Below, piece after piece: positions 5,103 through 64,000 of a DNA stretch of 64,000 nt. Source of the DNA: Shigella phage vB_SdyM_006; sequence record MK295204; one strand, 5' to 3'. The stretch's first letter is position 1. Each line of letters begins with the position of its first letter. A program made the translations under genes and the position numbers. Below the pieces are notes generated by a model. The model saw only the letters and a list, made by a program, of their open reading frames with translations, was not told the DNA's origin and searched no databases.

Positions 5103-5531
5103 TTAAGCCTTTTCAATATAATCTAAAAGTGTATTAATAAGTTCACGTGCTTCTTTAACTGATGTCACAGAAGATGATATTAATAATTCCTTTTTAGGTG
5201 TATCAGATTCTTTAAAATCACTTAGTTCTAAATATTCTAGAATACTCGAATCTAACTGAGACCCGATCATAGGAAAAACATAGCTTTCTTCGCCGAAATC
5301 GTCAAAAACTTGCCCATTAGAAAATACAAGTTTTAAACCTGGTAAAGGATCATCAACATTAGCTTGCTCTAATTCATAATCTTCAAAATGGAAAAGTTCA
5401 AATGGGGTGTCAAATAAATTATGATAATTAATAAACCGGATAAATCTTTGTCTAACTGGGATATCATGTCGCTCATAATGTCTAATCAACATATCAGAAG
5501 ATTTAATTTTAAATTTACCTAAACTAGTCAT
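5103..5531 (-). CDS. hypothetical protein, member of 3-copy tandem paralog family
   Basis: 142 aa; MTSLGKFKIKSSD... ...LLDYIEKA. Confidence 0.45.
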   Translation of the reverse strand: MTSLGKFKIKSSDMLIRHYERHDIPVRQRFIRFINYHNLFDTPFELFHFEDYELEQANVDDPLPGLKLVFSNGQVFDDFGEESYVFPMIGSQLDSSILEYLELSDFKESDTPKKELLISSSVTSVKEARELINTLLDYIEKA

Positions 5532-5533
5532 AA

Positions 5534-5947
5534 TTATTTCTCGATAAAATCTAAAAGTTTAATAATTAAAGCCTTTGCATCAGCTTTAGTAATAATAGGG
5601 CTGTCAACTACAATACCGTGACTTAAATTTAATTCAGCAGGACATATATAAGTGAGCATCACTGGATTTAAACGTGTGGCATTGTTTTCAAGATTAAAAA
5701 TATAGTAATCTAAATCTGCATCAGTAAATACCATGCCGTTTTCAAAAACAACTTCAATATCATTCAAATAATAGTCTTTAGATTCTACAATTCTAATATT
5801 AAAAGCAGAATCTCTAAGATTGTTTGACACTAAAAACTCGGCAAATTTAAGTCTTGAGATATTAAAAGTTTCTGCTCCAACATAATCTTTAATACTTTTT
5901 TCTGATTTGAACTTAAAAGTTCCTAGGTCTTTAATTAATTTGCTCAT
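5534..5947 (-). CDS. hypothetical protein, member of 3-copy tandem paralog family
   Basis: Track ORF 5534..5965; start moved to in-frame ATG at 5947 (AAGG Shine-Dalgarno, ATGA overlap with upstream gene); ...LGTFKFKSEK... ...LLDFIEK. Confidence 0.45.
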   Translation of the reverse strand: MSKLIKDLGTFKFKSEKSIKDYVGAETFNISRLKFAEFLVSNNLRDSAFNIRIVESKDYYLNDIEVVFENGMVFTDADLDYYIFNLENNATRLNPVMLTYICPAELNLSHGIVVDSPIITKADAKALIIKLLDFIEK

Positions 5948-6885
5948 AATACGGCCTTTGCCCATTTAGAAGTTTTGGATTTGATTTGTTGATTCAACTC
6001 ATCAATAACAACACACATTAAGTCTTTGTCATTAACCAGTTCATATTCAGGTTTACTACGATAATTCAGCCATAATGTATCGATTAAACAGTTAATAACA
6101 TCAGCTGCTTCACCAGTAGCGCATTCATCAACTTCATCTTGACGAAATGTAGCTTTAGAATATTCGCCAACTTCTTCTACTAAGTGTGCAAATACAATTG
6201 CTAAATCACGTTCAGGTGCTTTAATACACATTTTAACAGTTGGACTAATGTCTAAAATGGGTTCACAATCGAAAGATTCAATTGTCATTTTATCTAGCTC
6301 TTTTTGGTCTGCGTATTGAACAATGCTTAAATGTGTTAATTCAAAAAATTCTTTTTCGCGCTTATTGTATTGTTCTGTTCCAAAATCACCTAAATGGGCA
6401 AATGACCAAAACATTTCACCTTGGTTGTCAAAGTATTCGCCATTTAGACTAATAGATGTAGGATGACCATCTTTATCTGCTTCCAAAATAGTTAAAGTGT
6501 TAATACCTATTTTTGAATATTTTGCATTTAAAATAGGGTATAGCTCCTTTTGTTCACGTGTAATTTGTTGTGGAAGAGCTACAAAAGTATATGTACGTCC
6601 GGCCTGAAGTAATTTACGACGTGTGAATGCTTGTGCTAAACTAGATTTTGATAAAACACACCAAAACTGGTCTTTTTCATAGTCTTCTAATTCAATAATT
6701 TGATTATTGACAAGAATTTTAGACGCGCCTTCAAAGTCAATACCGTTTTGATTTATAGAAACGGTTTCTAAAATTTGAACTTCCATATTATCAAATAGCT
6801 CAATTCCACGTTCTTCTAAAATGTGTGAAAACGAACCAGTTGAAGCAGAAGAAAGATTTAATGTATATAATGCACCGTTATTCAT
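5944..6885 (-). CDS. hypothetical protein with C-terminal MazG-like NTP-pyrophosphohydrolase motif
   Basis: 313 aa; C-terminal segment LAIVFAHLVEEVGEYSKATFRQDEVDECATGEAADVINCLIDTL resembles MazG EExxE/ExxD helices; N-terminal 220 aa unassigned. Confidence 0.4.
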   Translation of the reverse strand: MNNGALYTLNLSSASTGSFSHILEERGIELFDNMEVQILETVSINQNGIDFEGASKILVNNQIIELEDYEKDQFWCVLSKSSLAQAFTRRKLLQAGRTYTFVALPQQITREQKELYPILNAKYSKIGINTLTILEADKDGHPTSISLNGEYFDNQGEMFWSFAHLGDFGTEQYNKREKEFFELTHLSIVQYADQKELDKMTIESFDCEPILDISPTVKMCIKAPERDLAIVFAHLVEEVGEYSKATFRQDEVDECATGEAADVINCLIDTLWLNYRSKPEYELVNDKDLMCVVIDELNQQIKSKTSKWAKAVL

Positions 6886-10872: not shown

Positions 10873-11436
10873 TTATTCATAATGGATTAAAGTTTTTTGT
10901 GGTTGAGTAACGTTAATAACAGAACAAATTTTATCACATGACGGGTCTAAAGCTGAAATCCAAAAACCTGAGTCGTTCCATAAAGGCTCTTCAGAATATG
11001 CATAGATATCACCGTTTCGGTTTGTAGCAATATAATTTTTATCCTTTTTTATAAAAAGGGTTTTGCCAAAATATTCAACTTGTTTATATATCTCTTCAAC
11101 ACAATGGTCCCAAATAATTGAAGGGTCTTCTTGTTTAATTAAAAAATCTTTTGCTTCTTGTTCGGTATCAAAATAAAGACCTTCTGGTTTATGTGAACCG
11201 ACATAATAAAAAATTCTGTCTGGTGTATTTACTTGTTCTAAATCTTTTAATCTGTATGTATTAAATGCACCATTATCCCAGTTCACTTTAACACAATATC
11301 CATTAGTACCTTGATATTCTTCAGTAATTGTCCCTTCGACATGTGGATTTTCACGTTCTGGATTGGTAGAGTACCATTCAGAAGTTTTAGAAATACGTAC
11401 ACGATTACCTGGATAAAGCTGGTTTTTCTCTAACAT
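10873..11436 (-). CDS. hypothetical protein, tandem paralog family (copy A)
   Basis: 187 aa; N-terminal GNRVRISKTSEW...NP..EGTIT motif and C-terminal NYIATNRNGDIY shared with next ORFs. Confidence 0.45.
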   Translation of the reverse strand: MLEKNQLYPGNRVRISKTSEWYSTNPERENPHVEGTITEEYQGTNGYCVKVNWDNGAFNTYRLKDLEQVNTPDRIFYYVGSHKPEGLYFDTEQEAKDFLIKQEDPSIIWDHCVEEIYKQVEYFGKTLFIKKDKNYIATNRNGDIYAYSEEPLWNDSGFWISALDPSCDKICSVINVTQPQKTLIHYE

Positions 11437-11651
11437 TATACTTTCCTTAAACTTTTAGTCCAATGCACATTAATAGAGCATTTATCAATATAAAATATAT
11501 CACCAGGTGTAACCCAAATATACCCAGGATTTAAATATGGCCTTTTAGTGAATCCATATAAACGCCCATCAGATTCCATAGCAACATATTTTACATCATC
11601 ATTAACAGATAACTGTAGACCTAAATAATCTACAGTTTTTGTATTAACCAT
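11436..11651 (-). CDS. hypothetical protein, truncated paralog (C-terminal domain only)
   Basis: 71 aa; DYLGLQLSVNDDVKYVAMESDGRLYGF resembles C-terminal halves of flanking paralogs. Confidence 0.35.
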   Translation of the reverse strand: MVNTKTVDYLGLQLSVNDDVKYVAMESDGRLYGFTKRPYLNPGYIWVTPGDIFYIDKCSINVHWTKSLRKV

Positions 11652-12201
11652 ATTCTACAAGAGAATTTTTAGCTGTAAACGGTGCAGCACTGTTAAAACT
11701 ACCAATCCAATAGCAATTTTTATCGTAGGCCCGCCATTTTTGTAATAGATTATCGTATTCTGGTTTATCCCAGAATCCATTTACAATACCATCGACATTA
11801 GTAGCAATATAATTAATTGATTCCGGGACTTCAAATTCTTTGCCTAAGTAGTTCAGAACTTTTGTTTTGTCTTTAGGTCTTTCAACAAAAGAGCCCCAAT
11901 CAATAGTTTTTAATTGCAAATTACGTAAATGTTCTTTTGCTTCTTGTTCGGTGTCAAATACTTGAAGTGTTTCATTATTAAGAACACCATACACAAACAC
12001 TGGGTTGTTTACTAAATACAGATCTTCTTCTTTGTATTCATTATAAGACCCAAGGTCCCATTTTACACCAATAGGAAGAGTATTTCCAACAACAATGTCA
12101 GTTATAGTTCCTTCACAATTTGGATTAGCCTCTGTATTACCAGCAGCAATCCAATTAGAATTAGAACTAATTTTTACACGATCGCCTTTTTTAAATTTCA
12201 T
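11644..12201 (-). CDS. hypothetical protein, tandem paralog family (copy B)
   Basis: 185 aa; MKFKKGDRVKISSNSNW...NPNCEGTITD; FDTEQEAKEHL shared with copy A (FDTEQEAKDFL). Confidence 0.45.
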   Translation of the reverse strand: MKFKKGDRVKISSNSNWIAAGNTEANPNCEGTITDIVVGNTLPIGVKWDLGSYNEYKEEDLYLVNNPVFVYGVLNNETLQVFDTEQEAKEHLRNLQLKTIDWGSFVERPKDKTKVLNYLGKEFEVPESINYIATNVDGIVNGFWDKPEYDNLLQKWRAYDKNCYWIGSFNSAAPFTAKNSLVEYG

Positions 12202-12776
12202 TATAATTCCACCAAAGAATTTTTAGGATTTTCGATAACTTCTGCTCTAATAAGCAGTTCTACTTCTATGTCGCCACACTCGTCAGACCAAATACCGTCA
12301 TCTTCGTCATAAGTAGGTTTATGCATAAACGAATAAATATCGCCATCTTCATCAGTAGCAATATAATAATGGTCATCTTTAACTAATAATTCAACACCAA
12401 GATAATTAACAGATTTATATCCAGGAATATGTTGTTTATACGAAACTTTAAGTTTTGGTTCTTTATATGTAAGTTTTTCTAATTCCAAATTAGCCGTATG
12501 TAGTGAAGCAAATGTGCCATTTTTAGGGTCACCAAAAAATCCAATAGTGTAAAGAATTTTAGGCTCTATATTTTTAGCAGAAACTAAATCTTCTCCACGA
12601 TAAGTATTCGTGTAGCCCGAGTCCCATTGAACCTTGATAAAATGAGTGTCTTCATCGATTTGAGGGTACAATTCAATAACTATTCCTTTTACATCAGATG
12701 GGTTGTGGTCTGACTTGCCAAAATATTGTGAGCCAGGAGCAAGTAATACTTTATCACCGATATTAAATTCGCTCAT
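12201..12776 (-). CDS. hypothetical protein, tandem paralog family (copy C)
   Basis: 191 aa; MSEFNIGDKVLLAPGSQYF...NPSDVKGIVIE; HYYIATDEDGDIYSF. Confidence 0.45.
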   Translation of the reverse strand: MSEFNIGDKVLLAPGSQYFGKSDHNPSDVKGIVIELYPQIDEDTHFIKVQWDSGYTNTYRGEDLVSAKNIEPKILYTIGFFGDPKNGTFASLHTANLELEKLTYKEPKLKVSYKQHIPGYKSVNYLGVELLVKDDHYYIATDEDGDIYSFMHKPTYDEDDGIWSDECGDIEVELLIRAEVIENPKNSLVEL

Positions 12777-38657: not shown

Positions 38658-38968
38658 TATTTAAATCCATTTGCACGTAATTTTTTATATTTACGAATAC
38701 CTTTTGTAGTAATTTCTGTAGGACCTTGGATATTAGGCTCGACACCAAATGCCTGAATACCAAAGTTATTTAGAATAGACTCTACCATAATTTCTCTAAT
38801 ACCTGTTTTAGAAATTTGGTGATGGTCTTTGTTAAGAGAGGAATGAAGCTTTTGTTCATGTATATCTAAAAATCTTGGAGTTACAATTTTATCTTCACTT
38901 AATAATTCTTCAGCGATAGGAAAAATATAATTTTTAATTTCATTGCGAAGTAACTTACTCATAATCAT
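38657..38968 (-). CDS. hypothetical protein
   Basis: Track start TTG; ATG at 38968; 1-nt overlap with ATPase gene. Confidence 0.3.
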   Translation of the reverse strand: MIMSKLLRNEIKNYIFPIAEELLSEDKIVTPRFLDIHEQKLHSSLNKDHHQISKTGIREIMVESILNNFGIQAFGVEPNIQGPTEITTKGIRKYKKLRANGFK

Positions 38969-39233
38969 CTCCAATATATTTTTTTAATCCAGATAAACCA
39001 CCAACTGATTTATCATTAATGAATATTTGTGGGTATATAATACTAAGGTTTTGTTTATTAAGCATTTTTGCTAGAGAAATAATTGTTTCTCTGTGATAAT
39101 CAAATCCTTCTGGTGTATTATATAGAACCGGGATAAAAGTGTACTCTAATTTATGTTCTTCACATAATCTAACAGCTTCTTTACATGAATAACAACGACC
39201 AACTTCTTCAGGAATGCCATAAATTATTATCAT
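38955..39233 (-). CDS. nrdH: glutaredoxin-like protein NrdH
   Basis: 92 aa; CYSC redox motif near N-terminus, thioredoxin-fold length; adjacent to nrdG/nrdD. Confidence 0.6.
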   Translation of the reverse strand: MIIIYGIPEEVGRCYSCKEAVRLCEEHKLEYTFIPVLYNTPEGFDYHRETIISLAKMLNKQNLSIIYPQIFINDKSVGGLSGLKKYIGDDYE

Positions 39234-43720: not shown

Positions 43721-43876
43721 TCATAGTTCACCTGTCTCATACCATTTTTGTTCTTGCTCATCTGTATCAAAGAAACCTTCAAGTCCAGTAGGAAGAGCAC
43801 CCGAAATTCTACTTAGAAGGCTATATAATTTTTCGTTTTGGTCTTCTAAATAAGCAATACGATCTTTATCGTTCAT
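43721..43876 (-). CDS. hypothetical small protein
   Basis: Track ORF extends to 43924 overlapping nrdC; ATG at 43876 follows nrdC stop with AAGGA Shine-Dalgarno. Confidence 0.25.
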   Translation of the reverse strand: MNDKDRIAYLEDQNEKLYSLLSRISGALPTGLEGFFDTDEQEQKWYETGEL

Positions 43877-44138
43877 TAATATATTCCTTAAATTTATCAA
43901 ATCCACCAATAGATTTATCATCAATAAAAATCTGTGGCATTGTTAATCCAACTTCTGAGCGTCGGTTTAAACGTTGTACTAATTCATCAATAACTTGTTT
44001 ATTAAGAACAGGTCCTTCAGATTCTGAAACAGGAATAAAAGTATATTCGAGTTTTTTAACATCTGCTAATCGTTTAGCGTTAATACATGGAACACATTTA
44101 AAGTGTTTAGGGTCAAATCCGTAAATTTCTATTTTCAT
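43866..44138 (-). CDS. nrdC: glutaredoxin NrdC
   Basis: 90 aa; MKIEIYGFDPKHFKCVPCINAKRL...GLTMPQIFIDDKSIGGFDKFKEY matches remembered T4 NrdC. Confidence 0.75.
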   Translation of the reverse strand: MKIEIYGFDPKHFKCVPCINAKRLADVKKLEYTFIPVSESEGPVLNKQVIDELVQRLNRRSEVGLTMPQIFIDDKSIGGFDKFKEYINER

Positions 44139-58740: not shown

Positions 58741-59147
58741 AAATCTAGTACCTTAATTAACAATTTAGCCTGGGATTTTGAGCAATATTTAGAGATATCA
58801 TTCAAATCAACCCATTTAAATTGGTCGTTTTCTGGGAATGTTTTACCATATTTAGTATACATACTAGTACATACACAGGTCTCAGCATCAGGAAAGTGTT
58901 CACTATCATATAAAAACAAATGCATGTTTTTGCCTTTATAATAAAAGTGTTCGCCCAAATCAATTAGTTCTTCAGGGTCTTTAACATCAAAATTTGTTTC
59001 TTCTTTAACTTCTCTTAAAGCGGCTTCTAATGCTGTTTCACCTTCATCAATATGGCCTTTAGGAATACCCCAATAAGGAGTATTTGTTGCATGGCATAAA
59101 AGGATTTGTTCGTTTTTTATAAAAATAATTCCAGATGAGATTTCCAT
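58737..59147 (-). CDS. nudE: Nudix hydrolase NudE
   Basis: 136 aa; Nudix box GHIDEGETALEAALREVKEETN. Confidence 0.7.
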   Translation of the reverse strand: MEISSGIIFIKNEQILLCHATNTPYWGIPKGHIDEGETALEAALREVKEETNFDVKDPEELIDLGEHFYYKGKNMHLFLYDSEHFPDAETCVCTSMYTKYGKTFPENDQFKWVDLNDISKYCSKSQAKLLIKVLDL

Positions 59148-59155
59148 TTTTATCC

Positions 59156-59377
59156 TTAATATTCAGCGTTATATAATCGAGACATAAGGTCTCTTAACAT
59201 TTTTGCTTCTTCATTAGATAGACTTAATGATTCGCGATAATTAATGTCACTTGGGATATCTGAATTATTTTTTAAAGTGTCAAATAAAACATCCATGCCA
59301 TGTTCTGTAAATTCTACATCCTCACAGAACAAATAATGATCACTAGATTCGCTAGTGATATGAAAAGCTATATACAT
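59156..59377 (-). CDS. hypothetical protein
   Basis: 73 aa. Confidence 0.3.
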   Translation of the reverse strand: MYIAFHITSESSDHYLFCEDVEFTEHGMDVLFDTLKNNSDIPSDINYRESLSLSNEEAKMLRDLMSRLYNAEY

Positions 59378-59637
59378 TTTATATCCTCTATAATTGAAAG
59401 AGTGTAATTAAGACTATATTTAAATTGTGTGGATTCACTCCATGAGACATCTCCTCGATATCCATACATAGTATCATAAACTATAAGAACACGGTCAGCA
59501 CCATTATCTAATAAAAAGCCATAATAAATTGTAAATTGACGGTCTTTAACACTATTATAGATATAGCAGTCTTTATATCCTAAAGTGGTTTTTATTTTTA
59601 AGGTGCTTCCAATTTCAATTACTAAATTAGGGTTCAT
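59368..59637 (-). CDS. hypothetical protein
   Basis: 89 aa. Confidence 0.3.
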   Translation of the reverse strand: MNPNLVIEIGSTLKIKTTLGYKDCYIYNSVKDRQFTIYYGFLLDNGADRVLIVYDTMYGYRGDVSWSESTQFKYSLNYTLSIIEDIKCI

Positions 59638-59897
59638 TTTCTTTTGGCCTTTATATAATCGTTTATATTTTCTATGCGTTCTAATTCTTTTTCTTTTTTA
59701 ATAGACCTGTAATTAAACACATATTTTATGCCTTCATAAATGAAAATCATAATAGGTATAACTACCATTACAGAACTACATAGTAAAAATATTTGTCCTT
59801 TATTAAAATCTTCTGATAAAGTCTCGTCAATTAGTCCGGATATTAAAACTGCTATGCATGACCACATAAGCCAGATTACTAAAATTGTCTCAACCAT
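59634..59897 (-). CDS. hypothetical membrane protein
   Basis: 87 aa; two hydrophobic helices. Confidence 0.3.
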   Translation of the reverse strand: MVETILVIWLMWSCIAVLISGLIDETLSEDFNKGQIFLLCSSVMVVIPIMIFIYEGIKYVFNYRSIKKEKELERIENINDYIKAKRK

Positions 59898-60163
59898 TAT
59901 AAATGTCCTCGCTTAGAGTTAATGTATGTCTCGACTTCTCTTTTTGTACGGTCAAAAGCTTCTTTTTGCTCATATACTTCTTGAGATTTTTTATATTGCT
60001 TATTAGCATTGATTTCTTTATAATTAGCAGCATATACGTAAATATAAAAGGCCCAGACCATAGGACAAATCATGGATGTAAATTTAGTATAAAACGGTTT
60101 GTTTACAATAGGATATAAACACCAAAAGAAGAACGTAAATATAATATAATTAGCCCAAATCAT
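59897..60163 (-). CDS. hypothetical membrane protein
   Basis: 88 aa; hydrophobic N-terminal half. Confidence 0.3.
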   Translation of the reverse strand: MIWANYIIFTFFFWCLYPIVNKPFYTKFTSMICPMVWAFYIYVYAANYKEINANKQYKKSQEVYEQKEAFDRTKREVETYINSKRGHL

Positions 60164-60639
60164 TTTGTGTCTCCTTTAATTTCATCAAGAAAGTCAAAAT
60201 AAGCGTTAGGATAAAACAATAGAATAAATGGTGTCATTGCTAGCCCAATAGAATACAATATCATACTCAATAAATCTGTAGAATAATGTATAAAGAAAGG
60301 CCAAACTATTAAAATATACATCATTATCATAAAAATAGTGTTCATCATATAAATATTGGACAATTTATGCGGTACACTGTAATACCCGTTTTGGTATCTA
60401 TTGTTATTATTACTTAATGAAATTACAATATCACCTACCGTCTCTTTATCGAAACCTAAATTTATTGTTTCAAACATGACAAAGAGTCCTAAAACTATAC
60501 AACTTATTAAAAATAATAATGAATATGCAAACCCTGCTCCTGTGTTTGCCCACATATCAAATGAGAACAATGTATTTCCAGATAACACAAGTAAAAATAT
60601 AAAGACAACTTTGTTGATTTGAGATAATAAATAATTCAT
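60160..60639 (-). CDS. hypothetical polytopic membrane protein
   Basis: 159 aa; several hydrophobic segments. Confidence 0.35.
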   Translation of the reverse strand: MNYLLSQINKVVFIFLLVLSGNTLFSFDMWANTGAGFAYSLLFLISCIVLGLFVMFETINLGFDKETVGDIVISLSNNNNRYQNGYYSVPHKLSNIYMMNTIFMIMMYILIVWPFFIHYSTDLLSMILYSIGLAMTPFILLFYPNAYFDFLDEIKGDTK

Positions 60640-61127
60640 AATTTTTTCCTACATTGCATAATATATTCTTCAAGAAAAGTTAATTTATTTTCCAGAACGT
60701 CTAAATATTCTTTTTCAAAATTAAAAACAAATTCAATAAGGTCAACATTAGTATTAAAGCATTTTCTATAAGATTCAAAAGATGAAAAATAATGTGCATT
60801 ATCTACGCCAACAAAAAAAGTAATGGCTATATCATCCTTTTTAAAACCAAATAACACATTTGATGATTTTAATGTATCTTCAATTTGGTCAAACTGTATA
60901 ATTGTTTTATTTTTGTCGTCTTTATAAGAAGTAGAATAACACCATATGGATTTAAATGGGTACACTATATCATTTAAAGAACAGTGATTCAACAAGATAT
61001 TTTTTATAGCATTAGCTTTAGCTTCAGGCATATTAAATAGTGGAATCACATAAGAAGTATCGCTTAGTTTTGAATATTTAGAAATAGGGTCTACTAATCT
61101 TAGTACTTCATTAAGCCATTGTTGCAT
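60636..61127 (-). CDS. hypothetical protein
   Basis: 163 aa; ATG with GGAGG Shine-Dalgarno. Confidence 0.35.
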   Translation of the reverse strand: MQQWLNEVLRLVDPISKYSKLSDTSYVIPLFNMPEAKANAIKNILLNHCSLNDIVYPFKSIWCYSTSYKDDKNKTIIQFDQIEDTLKSSNVLFGFKKDDIAITFFVGVDNAHYFSSFESYRKCFNTNVDLIEFVFNFEKEYLDVLENKLTFLEEYIMQCRKKL

Positions 61128-61144
61128 TATAACCTCCTAGTAAA

Positions 61145-61162
61145 ATGGGCCTTTCGGCCCAT
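61145..61162 (-). terminator. putative terminator hairpin
   Basis: atgggcc-tttc-ggcccat followed on minus strand by TTTT then Shine-Dalgarno of next gene. Confidence 0.4.
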
Positions 61163-61177
61163 TAATCAGTTTACTGA

Positions 61178-61774
61178 TTATTTGTTAAAAGTATCAACAT
61201 ATAATTCGAGTTCAGACATATTAACCGAAACATTAGAGCTTTCTGTAAATGTGTCAACTTCTGTAATAATAGTATCAACATCTACTAATACATGGTCTGT
61301 AGAAGCCATTACATCTTCAGGTAATTTGATACCTAATGCATCAGTTTCTTTGTTCAATTTAATAACTTCTAAATTAGCTTTAATTTCTTCTAATTTATCA
61401 GCAAGTTCAACAACTTTTTCTGCGATCGTAATAATAGATTTTTTACGATTTTCAACTTCGGTTTCTAAAGCTTCACCCAATTTTTTATATTGCAAAGCAG
61501 CGATAAAATATGCTTTTGGCACGGCTTGTTCTTTGCTTTTTAAGAGACGAATATGGTCTTCTTTTAGTTTACTGTTTTTAAAGTGGTCTTGAGCCTTGGC
61601 TTTTAAGTGCTCAATGCTTTGAGTTGCAGTAATTTCAGCATGACGTAAACTGTCAATTTTATTGATGATTAACGTCGCAGCTTGGGTATAACGTTCTTCA
61701 GCAGATAAATTGCTTTTGAAGAAAGAAGTTAATTTAGTAGATACGAAGTTTTTAGCAGTTTTTAATAAGCTCAT
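61178..61774 (-). CDS. hypothetical coiled-coil protein
   Basis: 198 aa; heptad-rich, Lys/Glu-rich. Confidence 0.35.
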   Translation of the reverse strand: MSLLKTAKNFVSTKLTSFFKSNLSAEERYTQAATLIINKIDSLRHAEITATQSIEHLKAKAQDHFKNSKLKEDHIRLLKSKEQAVPKAYFIAALQYKKLGEALETEVENRKKSIITIAEKVVELADKLEEIKANLEVIKLNKETDALGIKLPEDVMASTDHVLVDVDTIITEVDTFTESSNVSVNMSELELYVDTFNK

Positions 61775-61965
61775 TTTATTTCCTTACATGTATTAGTTTC
61801 AAAATCAACAATAATATTTTTACGTTCAATGCCAAGATTAATTAATTTAGAAATACATTGACCTTGGATTTTTTGGTCTTCTAAACCTTTAGAAACACTT
61901 TTAGATAATGCACTCCATGAAAAACAAATAACTATTAAAATAACACATCCAATTAAATATTTCAT
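61771..61965 (-). CDS. hypothetical secreted small protein
   Basis: Track ORF to 62025; ATG at 61965 with GGAG Shine-Dalgarno gives MKYLIGCVILIVICFSWSALS signal peptide. Confidence 0.3.
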   Translation of the reverse strand: MKYLIGCVILIVICFSWSALSKSVSKGLEDQKIQGQCISKLINLGIERKNIIVDFETNTCKEIK

Positions 61966-62031
61966 GATATACTCCATTTGTTTTGATGTGTCTATAGTAT
62001 TATAGATTTTTTGTGTTGTAAACATTTATTT

Positions 62032-62487
62032 TTAATTTTTTGAAATTAATTTTCGACATTGGTTTATGTATGCTTTGCGCTGGTTGTCCTCTAATTTTTC
62101 TAGATACGCAGCTTTTTGATCTTTAAAATTAACTAATCTTTCACTTATCTTATTAAATGTATCAGATTTAAGATAAAATACAGATCTTTTAGATTTAAAT
62201 TCAAAATAAGCTATAACAGTTCTTGACACATTTTCTCCTGGCTTCACTTGTGTCCTAGTACTTAATGGAAAATTCAAGTACATTGCAGCTGTGTATTCAG
62301 CCAAGAAGAAAGTCACTTTATCGACGTTATATAAGAGCCAGGACAATATATCATCTTCATTGATATATCTAAATTCAGATTCAATTAAAAGCCTATACCG
62401 AAGATCTGAGACTTGACATTTGCCAGCTTCATAAGAAGGCTCAAAACTTTCTGTGATGACAGAAAGTTCATCTAAATTATAATTCAT
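62032..62487 (-). CDS. hypothetical protein, tandem paralog family (copy 1)
   Basis: 151 aa; shares YxxxxxxVxFxxAEYTAAMYLNFPL and C-terminal AYIxxCRK with next two ORFs. Confidence 0.4.
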   Translation of the reverse strand: MNYNLDELSVITESFEPSYEAGKCQVSDLRYRLLIESEFRYINEDDILSWLLYNVDKVTFFLAEYTAAMYLNFPLSTRTQVKPGENVSRTVIAYFEFKSKRSVFYLKSDTFNKISERLVNFKDQKAAYLEKLEDNQRKAYINQCRKLISKN

Positions 62488-62914
62488 TTAGAGATTCCTT
62501 TATTTTATTTCTACATGATTCAATATAAGCTAAACGTTCAGAAGTTTTGATGGCTTCAATAAATTTGGTTCTTTTATTTTTAAAATCGTCAAACTCAGAA
62601 TATACACTATTGAAAAAATCAGCATCTAAATATACTACGTATTTTTTGTCGTCAAGCATAAATTCAGCTATAACCATACTAGTATATTTTGGGGCTTTTG
62701 AGCCAAGATATATTTTATTTAAACCTTTTAATGGAAAATTCCCGTATGTAGCATACTCGTAGTCAGCGCAATAAAATCTAACAGAACTTACATTATGGTA
62801 CATCCAATTGACAAAGTACTTAGTATACTGTTTATTTTTTCTACGTAAATCAGCAACTAAATATCCTGCTTCTTCTTCATCAAATAATGCAATAAAGTCA
62901 AAATTATTTTTCAT
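62477..62914 (-). CDS. hypothetical protein, tandem paralog family (copy 2)
   Basis: Track start TTG at 62950; first ATG 62914; YCADYEYATYGNFPL, AYIESCRNKIK. Confidence 0.4.
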   Translation of the reverse strand: MKNNFDFIALFDEEEAGYLVADLRRKNKQYTKYFVNWMYHNVSSVRFYCADYEYATYGNFPLKGLNKIYLGSKAPKYTSMVIAEFMLDDKKYVVYLDADFFNSVYSEFDDFKNKRTKFIEAIKTSERLAYIESCRNKIKESLNEL

Positions 62915-63374
62915 GGGTATGACCTTTAATTTTACGACGACATTTTTCAATATAGAAGTCTAATTCATTGGTATACTTAGAATTTACATAAATTTGTTTA
63001 TTTTTACTAAAACCTGAAATACCTTTTAAAACACCTTTGGCTTGATTATAGTCTATAAAGAACACATGTTCTTTATTATCGTACATAAATCTTAAAGCAA
63101 AAGTATCTTTATAGATATTAGATTCTTTTGTAACGATAGAATTAGTAGATTTATCAAGTGGCAAATTACATGCAAGAGCACAAGTATACTCACACTCATA
63201 TAATGTCACATAATTTGTATTAGTATACAAAAAATCTAGAATCTCATCAGAGGTCCAAGCTTTCTCAATATCATTTCCTAGAACACGTAGTTTCCAAAAA
63301 GTGGATTGACGTATATCAGCCCAGATAACATTATTATCTTTGCCTGCTTCAGGTCCTTTAAAAATATCAATCAT
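62904..63374 (-). CDS. hypothetical protein, tandem paralog family (copy 3)
   Basis: 156 aa; ECEYTCALACNLPL, FYIEKCRRKIK. Confidence 0.4.
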   Translation of the reverse strand: MIDIFKGPEAGKDNNVIWADIRQSTFWKLRVLGNDIEKAWTSDEILDFLYTNTNYVTLYECEYTCALACNLPLDKSTNSIVTKESNIYKDTFALRFMYDNKEHVFFIDYNQAKGVLKGISGFSKNKQIYVNSKYTNELDFYIEKCRRKIKGHTHEK

Positions 63375-63664
63375 TATATCCTCTCACAAAAAGCCCAATT
63401 AGCATGATAAACTGAAGCGCCTTTAGTATCATTCATGCACACTAAGTCTACAGGAGACACCACTCTATATAAAACAGGTTCTCCACCTAATGAACGCGCA
63501 GCTCTTCCGGCATAAATTTTAGCCAAACCTAAATCTTCAGTAAAGAAAACTCGGTCTAAATTTTTCTTACGTCCTTTTTCAGAAATAGTCTCAGTTGTTT
63601 CTGGTGGAAGTAACATATGTTCAATACCACATACAGAAGAAGAACCATGATAAAAAGTTTTCAT
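63374..63664 (-). CDS. small protein with Arr-like (rifampin ADP-ribosyltransferase-type) motif pattern
   Basis: 96 aa; FYHGSSS near N-terminus, then RVFFTEDL and GGEPVLYRV resemble Arr H-G-T / Y-F-S / Y-I-Y-x-V-E pattern; weak, by eye. Confidence 0.3.
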   Translation of the reverse strand: MKTFYHGSSSVCGIEHMLLPPETTETISEKGRKKNLDRVFFTEDLGLAKIYAGRAARSLGGEPVLYRVVSPVDLVCMNDTKGASVYHANWAFCERI

Positions 63665-63720
63665 TATAGACTCCGTTTTTAAATTATGTAGCTATTATAC
63701 ACACAATTTTTAATTTGTAC

Positions 63721-63746
63721 ATACTATAAACGAAAAAAGGAACCAA
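63721..63746 (-). terminator. intrinsic terminator hairpin (bidirectional-looking)
   Basis: cgaaaaaaggaaccaaaaggttcctt; U-run on minus strand; follows stop of partial gene at 63752. Confidence 0.55.
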
Positions 63747-63751
63747 AAGGT

Positions 63752-64000
63752 TCCTTTAATTTTAGATACATCCACCACAAGAACTATGTCGCCAATCTTC
63801 TTCGTTAATATGTGGATAAAGAGCATATAAGATTTTTTCGATATCTTTAAATCCATGTCTTTTTAAAGACGAAACTAATGAGTTAGTATCGTGTTTCAAC
63901 ATTAATTGGACCCAACTTTCTGGACTTAACCCTGCTGTATAAGAATCCCATTCTTCAGACCAATTATCGTCAAAACGCCAGGTGTCATAAGATTTACGTG
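63752..64000 (-). CDS. hypothetical protein, C-terminal fragment (N-terminus beyond window end)
   Basis: Hand-translated open frame ending ...HINEEDWRHSSCGGCI-stop at 63752; no start inside window. Confidence 0.35.

What the first reader, a model, noticed from the sequence alone, without database searches (positions are those of the whole stretch)
62032..63374. Third tandem paralog triplet near the window end
Three ~150-aa ORFs share a Y-x-A-x-Y-x-x-A-x-Y-x-N-F-P-L core and a C-terminal A-Y-I-x-x-C-R-[KN]-K motif, with overlapping starts and stops.
Basis: seen in the sequence. Interest (0 to 1): 0.4.

Follow-up and report, generated by a model that had tools for sequence, protein, structure and literature searches.

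The report
Three tandem paralog phage early genes
Three neighbouring genes of a T4-like Proteus/Shigella phage are real, fast-diverging copies of one small protein of unknown function; this is ordinary for the variable parts of such genomes, but their tail motif links them to a wider, uncharacterised T4 gene group.

Summary
Three minus-strand genes (62032-62487, 62477-62914, 62904-63374; 151, 145 and 156 aa) are true paralogs (BLASTP E 3e-20 to 4e-11) joined by 11-nt start/stop overlaps. They match ORFs 111-113 of Shigella phage vB_SdyM_006 exactly.

- **Distribution:** the family (phrog_16787, function unknown) occurs only in Bragavirus phages, with 2-3 copies per genome. A profile search of 1.84 billion proteins found only its five subfamilies.
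- **Coding status:** dN/dS is 0.14-0.39, so the genes are functional, but they diverge much faster than their flanks.
- **Expression:** they follow a terminator plus early-type promoter and a highly conserved 96-aa gene. No late promoter is present.

The C-terminal motif is not private to the triplet. The signature [YF][IV]xxCR+basic also ends a 163-aa ORF and, as a K-for-C variant, two small membrane ORFs nearby. It also ends T4 e.3 and e.5 and their counterparts in Morganella, Klebsiella and Aeromonas phages, always near gene e.6. The triplet is probably a lineage-specific expansion of this group. Its function is unknown; I infer non-enzymatic host-interaction proteins.

The parts
62904..63374 (-). 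g3, paralog 1 of the array (156 aa; subfamily C; identical to vBSdyM006_113)
   Evidence: ORF. BLASTP to g1 and g2. phrog_16787 E 9.6e-55. P0001 is 100% identical. dN/dS 0.20 against phiP4-3.
62477..62914 (-). g2, paralog 2 (145 aa from ATG 62914; the ORF also opens at TTG 62950; subfamily B; vBSdyM006_112)
   Evidence: AAAGGT Shine-Dalgarno 7 nt before the ATG; 11-nt overlap with the g3 stop. Exact look-up. dN/dS 0.14.
62032..62487 (-). g1, paralog 3 (151 aa; subfamily A; vBSdyM006_111)
   Evidence: AlphaFold model with pLDDT 80.4 and pTM 0.73. Exact look-up. dN/dS 0.16.
63374..63664 (-). Conserved 96-aa gene that heads the same transcription unit (phrog_2110). Its stop shares 1 nt with the g3 start.
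   Evidence: Found in 609 phage records at about 70-78% identity, sometimes named ADP-ribosyl transferase. GGAG Shine-Dalgarno.
63694..63757 (-). Terminator-like hairpin (63757-63736) directly followed by a sigma-70/early-type promoter-like site (63721-63694). This is a PeSL-like composite at the head of the cassette.
   Evidence: Pattern scan, sequence. The PeSL concept comes from PMC2839356 and PMC4122927. This is a consensus match only and is not experimentally shown.
60636..61127 (-). 163-aa soluble ORF ending in YIMQCRKKL. Probably a distant fourth relative of the triplet. It sits where T4 has e.5, immediately downstream of e.6.
   Evidence: Best non-family ORF for the triplet HMM (E 0.025). 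hhalign P 5e-4 over 106 columns. Reciprocal ranks 1 and 2-4 among 105 window ORFs. In Foldseek, phiP4-3 g3 and g2 are its top non-self hits, but the model is poor at pLDDT 52.
61178..61774 (-). 198-aa homolog of T4 e.6 (phrog_1203), the conserved anchor of the locus
   Evidence: tblastn finds 1,200 phage records including T4 e.6.
61771..62025 (-). 84-aa single-pass membrane ORF between the triplet and e.6, in the same gene string
   Evidence: Hydropathy.
59634..60163 (-). Two small membrane ORFs (87 and 88 aa) ending in YIKAKRK and YINSKRGHL. These are K-for-C variants of the same tail motif, in the position of T4 e.3/e.4.

Best explanation
**Shown.**
- The three ORFs are real protein-coding genes that are co-oriented and overlap at their ends. 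They lie in the early-gene variable region between the tRNA cluster and the e/nudE genes of a Bragavirus (T4-like) phage.
- They arose by tandem duplication and have diverged to 23-34% identity.
- They remain under purifying selection.
- Each is predicted to be a soluble ~150-aa protein with a disordered N-terminus, a small alpha/beta domain and a long basic C-terminal helix.
- The family is confined to Bragavirus.

**Supported but not proven.** The triplet is a lineage-specific expansion of a broader, locus-bound group of T4-like accessory proteins clustered around gene e.6. The group includes T4 e.5-type soluble proteins and e.3-type membrane proteins. What unites it is a C-terminal amphipathic-helix signature, hydrophobic-[ED]-x-[YF]-[IV]-x-x-C-R-basic.

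**Inferred.** The proteins are non-enzymatic binding proteins made early in infection. The conserved tail helix would be a common structural or docking element, and the fast-diverging alpha/beta domain would recognise variable host or defence targets. That would explain why 2-3 very different copies are kept and why alleles are exchanged between phages.
For: **Paralogy and family.**

**Restricted distribution.**
- A profile search of 1.84e9 representative proteins returned only the five subfamilies, plus one spurious sushi-repeat hit.
- tblastn against 50,697 phage records hit only three Proteus phages.
- IMG/VR holds only phiP4-3.

**Coding and selection.** dN/dS is 0.14-0.20 (window vs phiP4-3) and 0.37-0.39 (Pm5461 vs SJ_PmiM), against 0.02-0.08 for the flanking 96-aa and e.6 genes. 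dS is 0.32-0.42 in g2/g3 against 0.02-0.07 in the flanks, which indicates allelic exchange.

**Copy number.** Copy number and subfamily content differ between lineages: A+B+C in one, D+E in the other.

**Expression context.**
- A terminator plus promoter-like site lies upstream of the 96-aa gene, followed by a gene string with 1-, 11- and 11-nt overlaps and Shine-Dalgarno sequences.
- The window holds a single TATAAATA, on the opposite strand, against 16.6 expected.
- The T4 e.x genes carry annotated early promoters.

**Structure.** pLDDT 80, no TM segments, C-terminal 35 residues with net charge +2 to +6.

**Tail signature across genera.** It occurs in 23 proteins from phages of six host genera. 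Y/F, I/V and R are invariant and C is present in 21 of 23. Synonymous codon variation shows the selection acts on the protein.

**Link to the 163-aa ORF in the e.5 position.**
Against: - No function is demonstrated for any member or for T4 e.3-e.6.
- Homology between the triplet and T4 e.5 beyond the tail is not significant (hhalign P 0.034; no cross-PHROG hit).
- The tail could have spread by recombination of a 3' module and need not reflect whole-gene ancestry.
- In short-tail members the R-[GK]-K codons double as the Shine-Dalgarno of the next gene, so part of the motif may be constrained at the RNA level.
- The triplet lies upstream of e.6, whereas CR-tail genes in the other genera examined lie downstream of it.
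- Early expression rests on consensus scans only.
- 'Non-enzymatic' rests on an absence of hits, and absence of hits is weak evidence.
Confidence: 0.5

Rival explanations
1. The triplet is an independent Bragavirus ORFan family. The shared C-terminal motif is a mobile 3' module, or a by-product of gene-junction constraints, acquired by recombination in a shuffling-prone region. It would then share no whole-domain ancestry with e.5-type proteins or the 163-aa ORF.
For: - Cross-family similarity is concentrated in the last 13-35 residues.
- PHROGs keeps the families apart.
- The motif sits on both soluble and membrane proteins.
- In several genes the Arg/Gly/Lys codons form the next gene's Shine-Dalgarno.
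- T4-type variable regions are known to shuffle modules (PMC2839356, PMC4122927).
Against: - hhalign aligns 106-123 co-linear columns between the triplet and the 163-aa family, with reciprocal top ranks among 105 ORFs.
- The predicted secondary-structure order is similar in both.
- Foldseek ranks triplet members as the top non-self hits of the 163-aa model.
- Codons of the Y/F-I/V-x-x-C part vary synonymously, and this part lies upstream of the Shine-Dalgarno.
Confidence: 0.25
2. The paralogs are dedicated partners of the conserved 96-aa protein encoded just upstream, a putative minimal ADP-ribosyltransferase. They could act as regulators, specificity adaptors, immunity proteins or substrates, for example through the invariant Arg of the tail.
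For: - The genes share an operon, and the 96-aa stop overlaps the g3 start by 1 nt.
- The same order is seen in phiP4-3, Pm5461, SJ_PmiM and Logan contigs.
- Some records name the 96-aa protein ADP-ribosyl transferase.
- There is a weak hhalign match of its FYHG[ST]/[VI][FY]F[ST] motifs to ARR-2 (P 0.002).
Against: - The 96-aa gene occurs in 609 phage records, nearly all without this family, and is often next to dmd elsewhere in the genome.
- In Morganella phage MP1 it sits at the same locus without the paralogs.
- Its ART identity is unverified: no Pfam, NCBIfam or PDB hit.
Confidence: 0.1
3. They are polymorphic internal head (IP-like) proteins. Like T4 IPI, they would be packaged into the capsid and injected to counter host restriction.
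For: - T4 ipI/ipII/ipIII lie in the same general region.
- IPs are small, variable and multi-copy.
- The triplet has a disordered N-terminus.
- The MP1 virion preparation contained several proteins from this region.
Against: - There is no capsid-targeting sequence. T4 IPs and MP1 gp136 begin MKT[YF][QK]EF, and the triplet N-termini do not.
- No late promoter is present.
- The MP1 mass-spectrometry list also includes clearly non-structural enzymes.
Confidence: 0.04
4. They are degenerate DEDD-type (RNase H-like) 3'-5' exonuclease domains that act as pseudo-enzymes or nucleic-acid end binders.
For: - From my own knowledge of the DEDD motifs, the family invariants D-x-R, N-[FL]-P-L and Y-x3-C loosely echo ExoI, ExoII and ExoIII.
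- The C-terminal helix is basic.
Against: - The catalytic E/D/D are absent.
- No Pfam or PDB sequence signal appears even at E 10.
Confidence: 0.04

Closest known systems
phrog_16787 (PHROGs v4, unknown function); GenBank hypothetical proteins vBSdyM006_111-113, phiP4-3 phiP43_150-152, Pm5461_109/110 and SJ_190/191
   Same: The three ORFs are full-length members (E 1e-46 to 1e-54) and exact matches to vB_SdyM_006 ORFs.
   Different: Nothing differs; this is the family itself. It has no assigned function, and I found no description of its paralogy, subfamily structure or tail motif in the papers searched.
T4 e.5 (phrog_2607, 'conserved hypothetical', 202 aa), with T4 e.3/e.4 and their counterparts downstream of e.6 in T4-like phages
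   Same: - Early, non-core genes in the e-to-tRNA variable region around e.6.
- Overlapping gene strings.
- The same C-terminal signature [YF][IV]xxCR+basic within 2-15 residues of the end.
- A soluble alpha/beta-plus-helix layout in the e.5-position proteins.
- Weak co-linear profile similarity through the 163-aa ORF.
   Different: - No significant sequence similarity beyond the tail.
- The triplet lies upstream, not downstream, of e.6.
- It is 150 aa, not 200 aa.
- It is present in 2-3 copies.
- e.3/e.4 are membrane proteins, whereas the triplet is soluble.
Variable ORFan cassettes of T4-type hyperplastic regions flanked by PeSL promoter/terminator elements (PMC2839356, PMC4122927)
   Same: - Location in a variable region between core blocks.
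- A terminator hairpin plus early promoter-like site at the head of the cassette.
- Lineage-specific presence and copy number.
- Mosaic dS consistent with recombinational exchange.
   Different: PeSL identity was not tested against the published consensus. Only one such element was found in 60000-64000. The internal junctions are overlapping ORFs, not PeSLs.
T4 internal proteins IPI/IPII/IPIII
   Same: Small, polymorphic, multi-copy genes in the same genome region.
   Different: No capsid-targeting sequence, no late promoter, and no sequence similarity.

Membership tests
phrog_16787 (Bragavirus ORFan family) | Significant full-length match to the family HMM | tested here: met
   E 2.7e-46, 1.3e-51 and 9.6e-55, covering about 145 of 148 profile positions.
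phrog_16787 (Bragavirus ORFan family) | Mutual significant similarity of the three ORFs (paralogy) | tested here: met
   BLASTP E 3e-20, 2e-12 and 4e-11.
T4 e.5-like proteins (phrog_2607) | Significant sequence or profile similarity over the domain | tested here: not met
   hhalign of the triplet against e.5 gives P 0.034-0.07, and only the tail aligns reliably. No phrog_2607 hit.
T4 e.5-like proteins (phrog_2607) | Position immediately downstream of e.6 | tested here: not met
   The triplet lies upstream of e.6 (61178-61774). The 163-aa ORF occupies the e.5 position.
'CR-tail' group (defined here: e.3/e.5-type genes around e.6) | C-terminal [YF][IV]xxCR followed by basic residues, within about 15 residues of the end | tested here: met
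   YINQCRKL, YIESCRNK and YIEKCRRK. The same signature occurs in 23 proteins from phages of six host genera.
'CR-tail' group (defined here) | Common ancestry of the whole protein, not only the tail | tested here: inconclusive
   Triplet against the 163-aa family gives P 5e-4, 106 columns and reciprocal top ranks. Links to e.5, MP1 gp107/108 and the Aeromonas and Klebsiella proteins are weak.
T4 internal head proteins (IP) | N-terminal capsid-targeting sequence (MKT[YF]QEFI..E) | tested here: not met
   The triplet N-termini are MNYNLDEL, MKNNFDFI and MIDIFKGP. T4 IPs and MP1 gp136 carry the sequence.
T4 internal head proteins (IP) | Late promoter (TATAAATA) upstream | tested here: not met
   The 64-kb window contains one TATAAATA, on the opposite strand at 60348.
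DEDD 3'-5' exonucleases | Conserved acidic ExoI/II/III catalytic residues | tested here: not met
   The family invariants are D, R, A, N, P, F, Y, C and R, with no DEDD set. No Pfam signal at E 10.
DEDD 3'-5' exonucleases | Significant fold match | tested here: not met
PeSL-flanked hyperplastic-region cassette | Composite terminator stem-loop plus early promoter at the cassette border | tested here: inconclusive
   A hairpin at 63757-63736 and a 10/12 promoter-like site at 63721-63694 lie upstream of the 96-aa gene. This is a consensus match only and was not compared with published PeSL sequences.
Known anti-phage defence / anti-defence protein models (PADLOC-DB) | HMM match | tested here: not met
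   No hits at E up to 1.

The most novel reading that the evidence does not exclude
The C-terminal Phi-[ED]-x-[YF]-[IV]-x-x-C-R-basic helix may be a previously unrecognised interaction or modification module of T4-like phages. It would tether a set of interchangeable soluble 'sensor/effector' domains (the triplet, the 163-aa ORF, e.5-type proteins) to small membrane-anchored proteins carrying the same tail (e.3-type) around the conserved e.6 protein. The result would be a modular, membrane-associated early complex whose soluble subunits are swapped and multiplied during host adaptation. The invariant Cys-Arg could be its functional core: a contact point, a redox site, or a target of a phage arginine-ADP-ribosyltransferase.
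Probability: 0.1. Interest if true: 0.6.

Novelty: new member of a known kind. Interest (0 to 1): 0.3.

Why it matters
By itself the triplet is one more lineage-restricted ORFan expansion in a T4-type variable region. It is useful as a marker of Bragavirus diversification and as a candidate host-range or anti-defence locus for phages considered for Proteus/Shigella therapy.

The tail signature is the more general point. It ties the triplet to T4 e.3/e.5 and to similar genes in phages of at least five other host genera. This gives a handle on a block of T4 genes (e.3-e.6) for which I found no assigned function. A single motif mutant (C-to-S or R-to-A), or one interaction screen in T4 itself, could say what the whole group does.

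Tried and rejected
**Domain and model libraries.** Pfam, NCBIfam and PADLOC scans of the triplet and its neighbours gave nothing above noise, even at E 10 across all 10 family members.

**Predicted structures.** Foldseek against BFVD found only the family itself as significant. Weak hits to T4-like phage proteins from Morganella MP1 and Aeromonas AS-yj are suggestive only, and their identity with the e.5-position genes is inferred from length. AFDB50 was unavailable.

**Wider sequence searches.**
- The 1.84e9-protein profile search found no new relatives. The one extra hit, P0010, is a eukaryote-type sushi-repeat artefact.
- The search for related loci with the alignment failed because no block was conserved enough. 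With g3 alone it recovered only phiP4-3.

**Internal-protein idea.** Rejected: no capsid-targeting sequence and no late promoter.

**The 163-aa ORF.** Its AlphaFold model was poor (pLDDT 52), so the fold comparison is only a ranking hint.

**The e.5 family.** It turned out to be narrow (Tequatrovirus and Mosigvirus only), which limits profile depth.

**The 96-aa neighbour as an ADP-ribosyltransferase.** There is no Pfam or PDB hit, and only a weak hhalign match to ARR-2.

**Other checks.** Rfam found nothing in 59000-64000. Literature searches for T4 e.3-e.6 functions found nothing, and the T4 genome review was not held.
Full report
**What the window is.** The 4 kb around the finding is 95% identical to Proteus phage phiP4-3 (Straboviridae, Bragavirus). 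The three ORFs and the nearby 163-aa ORF are exact matches to ORFs 111, 112, 113 and 108 of Shigella phage vB_SdyM_006. The paper describing that phage reports it as close to phiP4-3 and Pm5461 and does not discuss these genes (PMC7925395). The region lies between the tRNA cluster and the nudix (nudE) and endolysin genes. In T4 this stretch holds e.2-e.8. Every gene in it is annotated 'hypothetical'.

**Observation check.** Three minus-strand ORFs occupy 62032-62487 (g1, 151 aa), 62477-62950 (g2) and 62904-63374 (g3, 156 aa).
- g2 most likely starts at ATG 62914 (145 aa). An AAAGGT Shine-Dalgarno lies 7 nt upstream, and the phiP4-3 annotation uses the same start.
- Pairwise BLASTP gives 34%, 30% and 26% identity, with E 3e-20, 2e-12 and 4e-11. 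All three hit phrog_16787 at E below 1e-45. The paralogy is real.
The C-terminal Y-I-x-x-C-R is invariant in all ten family members I assembled.
- The overlaps are real and stereotyped. Both internal junctions are 11 nt, ATGAAAAATAA and ATGAATTATAA. In each, a Shine-Dalgarno (AAAGGT or AAGGAA) is encoded in the tail of the upstream gene, which is an arrangement suited to translational coupling.

**Distribution.**
- The family is extremely narrow. A profile of eight members searched against 1.84 billion representative proteins returned five clusters, which are the five subfamilies, plus one spurious repeat protein.
- tblastn against 50,697 phage genomes hit only phiP4-3, Pm5461 and SJ_PmiM. IMG/VR held only phiP4-3. 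Two Logan contigs show the same gene order.
- The vB_SdyM_006/phiP4-3 lineage carries subfamilies A, B and C (g1, g2, g3). The Pm5461/SJ_PmiM lineage carries two other subfamilies, D and E, at the same place.
- Subfamilies are only 17-36% identical to each other. The flanking 96-aa and e.6-like genes are 90-94% identical between the two lineages.

**Are they functional genes?** Nei-Gojobori dN/dS is 0.14-0.20 for g1-g3 against phiP4-3 and 0.37-0.39 for D and E between Pm5461 and SJ_PmiM. This is purifying selection, but clearly weaker than on the flanks (0.02-0.08). Synonymous divergence is mosaic: 0.42 and 0.32 in g3 and g2, against 0.016-0.07 in g1 and the neighbouring genes. The g3-g2 segment was therefore probably exchanged by recombination with a more distant phage (inference).

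**Expression context.**
- A hairpin with a T-run lies at 63757-63736 on the minus strand, directly after the preceding gene. A 10/12 sigma-70-type promoter-like site (63721-63694) and a GGAG ribosome-binding site for the 96-aa gene follow it.
- From there the 96-aa gene, g3, g2, g1, an 84-aa membrane ORF and the e.6 homolog run on with overlaps or gaps of a few bases.
- A terminator/early-promoter composite of this kind resembles the PeSL elements described at the borders of variable cassettes in T4-type phages (PMC2839356, PMC4122927). I did not compare sequences.
- The T4 late-promoter box TATAAATA occurs once in the 64-kb window, on the other strand, against 16.6 expected.
- The equivalent T4 genes carry annotated early promoters in record L13089. 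Early expression is therefore likely but not shown.

**The protein.**
- AlphaFold2 on the eight-sequence alignment gave pLDDT 80.4 and pTM 0.73. The model has a disordered N-terminus of about 21 residues, three short strands, a helix, a strand, and a long loop that carries the conserved EY..A..N[FL]PL motif. A beta-hairpin, a helix and a 30-residue C-terminal helix follow. From about residue 81 onward the 10-residue block means are about 89-93, falling to 69 at the last residue.
- The proteins have no TM segments. Their pI is near neutral, and the last 35 residues carry net charge +2 to +6.
- No Pfam, NCBIfam, PADLOC or PDB-sequence match exists.
- Foldseek against BFVD finds the family's own models (TM 0.72-0.89) and, weakly, proteins of other T4-like phages.

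**The tail motif is shared well beyond the triplet.**
- In the window, [YF][IV]xx[CK]R occurs six times in 20,508 positions of 129 minus-strand ORFs. All six are within the last 22 residues of ORFs between 59634 and 63374: the triplet, a 163-aa soluble ORF (YIMQCRKKL) and two small membrane ORFs (YINSKRGHL, YIKAKRK).
- In the syntenic locus of Morganella phage MP1, six genes end the same way. Two are soluble paralogs (gp107/108, FVDECRRR) and four are membrane proteins (gp106, gp110-112, e.g. YIKQCRGKK).
- In T4, e.3 (membrane) ends EFVIDCRKIK, e.5 (soluble) ends KFVKECREYVKAITIPSK, and e.4 has a shifted variant.
- I used the e.6 homolog as an anchor; it is present in 1,200 phage records. With it I found the motif in the genes just downstream of e.6 in a Mosigvirus-like coliphage, a Klebsiella phage and an Aeromonas Tulanevirus. 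A C-I variant occurs in Aeromonas AS-yj. The motif was absent from a Pseudotevenvirus and from an Ackermannviridae phage.
- Anchored on the Cys, 23 tails give the consensus Phi(-7)-[ED](-6)-x-[YF](-4)-[IV](-3)-x-x-C(0)-R(+1)-[KGR]-[KR], lying 2-15 residues from the end. The spacing fits one face of an amphipathic helix.
- Codons for Y/F, I/V, C and R vary synonymously (TAT/TAC/TTT, ATT/ATA/GTT, TGT/TGC, CGT/CGA/AGA/AGG/CGG), so the conservation acts on the protein.
- In the short-tail genes the Arg-Gly/Lys codons also spell the next gene's Shine-Dalgarno (AGAGG, AGGA, GGAGA). This may add an RNA-level constraint on the basic end of the motif.

**Is the triplet related to these genes beyond the tail?**
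- For the 163-aa ORF, which sits where T4 has e.5, the evidence is consistent but individually weak:
  - it is the best non-family ORF for the triplet HMM (E 0.025 among 458 ORFs);
  - hhalign gives P 5e-4 over 106 co-linear columns;
  - against 105 window ORFs, the 163-aa profile ranks g3, g2 and g1 as numbers 2, 3 and 4 after itself, and the triplet profile ranks the 163-aa ORF first after its own members;
  - the order of predicted secondary-structure elements is similar;
  - Foldseek of the low-confidence 163-aa model places phiP4-3 g3 and g2 as its top non-self hits in BFVD.
- For T4 e.5 the link is weaker still. The 163-aa family against e.5 gives P 0.003, and the triplet against e.5 gives P 0.034. 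PHROGs keeps all these families separate.
- My reading is that the triplet is probably a distant, lineage-specific offshoot of the e.5-type soluble proteins. A shared recombining 3' module cannot be excluded.

**Mechanism.** No member of this group has a known function, and I found no literature on T4 e.3-e.6. Several features fit early accessory proteins that bind host or defence components and do not catalyse a reaction:
- the location in a variable region;
- the probable early expression;
- the lack of any catalytic signature;
- retention of several highly diverged copies under purifying selection;
- lineage-specific subfamily sets;
- signs of allelic exchange.

In this view the conserved tail helix is a common structural or docking element, and the divergent alpha/beta domain provides specificity. 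This is an inference, and I give the specific mechanism low confidence.

**Alternatives considered.** I considered three other readings. One is that the paralogs are partners or substrates of the upstream 96-aa protein. That gene occurs in 609 genomes, nearly all without the family. The second is that they are internal head proteins, but they have no targeting sequence and no late promoter. The third is that they are degenerate exonucleases, which the structural evidence does not support.

**Verdict.** The observation and the 'tandem paralog' interpretation are correct. As a biological feature the triplet is ordinary for T4-type variable regions. The added value here is twofold: the family is shown to be a Bragavirus-restricted, rapidly diversifying set, and its tail motif connects it to the uncharacterised T4 e.3/e.5 gene group across several genera.

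Noticed in passing
window 63374-63664 (-): The 96-aa protein heading the operon (MKTFYHGSSS...) is very strongly conserved. It occurs in 609 phage records across Escherichia, Klebsiella, Acinetobacter, Aeromonas and Vibrio phages at about 70-78% identity. In other genera it often sits next to dmd, and some records name it 'ADP-ribosyl transferase'. It has no Pfam, NCBIfam or PDB sequence hit. hhalign to ARR-2 aligns its FYHG[ST] and [VI][FY]F[ST] motifs only weakly (P 0.002, probability 13%)..
   Followed up: partly
window 59634-61127 (-); L007 6100-8948; L008 4458-5771; L017, L018 and L016 downstream of e.6: The C-terminal signature Phi-[ED]-x-[YF]-[IV]-x-x-C-R-basic is shared by soluble and small membrane proteins clustered around gene e.6. 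It is seen in T4 (e.3, e.5) and in Bragavirus, Morganella MP1, a Mosigvirus-like phage, and Klebsiella and Aeromonas phages. Selection acts at the protein level, but in short-tail genes the basic codons also form the next gene's Shine-Dalgarno.
   Followed up: yes
whole window (1-64000): The T4 late-promoter box TATAAATA occurs once (60348-60355, + strand) against 16.6 +/- 4.1 expected from shuffles. This is strong avoidance, consistent with a 64-kb block of early/middle genes all on the minus strand.
   Followed up: no
window 10873-12776 (-), 5103-5965 (-), 38955-39233 / 43866-44138 (-): There are other paralog sets in the same window. One is three ~185-190-aa tandem ORFs plus a 71-aa fragment-like ORF at 10873-12776 (E down to 5e-23). 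Another is two ~143-aa tandem ORFs at 5103-5965 (E 1e-8). A third is a dispersed pair of ~90-aa ORFs (E 4e-18). None carries the CR tail.
   Followed up: no
window 62477-63374 compared with L001 8484-9378: Synonymous divergence from phiP4-3 is mosaic. dS is 0.42 (g3) and 0.32 (g2), against 0.016-0.07 for the 96-aa gene, g1, the 84-aa ORF and e.6. This suggests a recombinational replacement of the g3-g2 segment.
   Followed up: partly
window 63694-63757 (-): A perfect 9-bp-stem hairpin with a T-run is followed within 15 nt by a promoter-like TGTACA-16-TATAAT. This resembles the PeSL terminator/early-promoter composites reported to border shuffled cassettes in T4-type phages.
   Followed up: partly
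L002 5831-6103; L003 5420-5692; L007 9865-10137 and 11047-11316: A 90-aa gene (MKLQRNSIKVQ...) lies between the paralog array and e.6 in Pm5461 and SJ_PmiM and is duplicated in Morganella MP1 (gp115, gp118). It is absent from the window and from phiP4-3, which is another sign of cassette turnover at this locus.
   Followed up: no
L007 10506-10946 and 11399-11830 (MP1 gp117, gp119): Two ~145-aa MP1 paralogs upstream of the 96-aa homolog end in Y[VA]SNYR[RK], a Y-for-C variant of the tail. Both were detected by mass spectrometry in the MP1 phage preparation (PMC5384007). They show no detectable similarity to the triplet HMM.
   Followed up: partly
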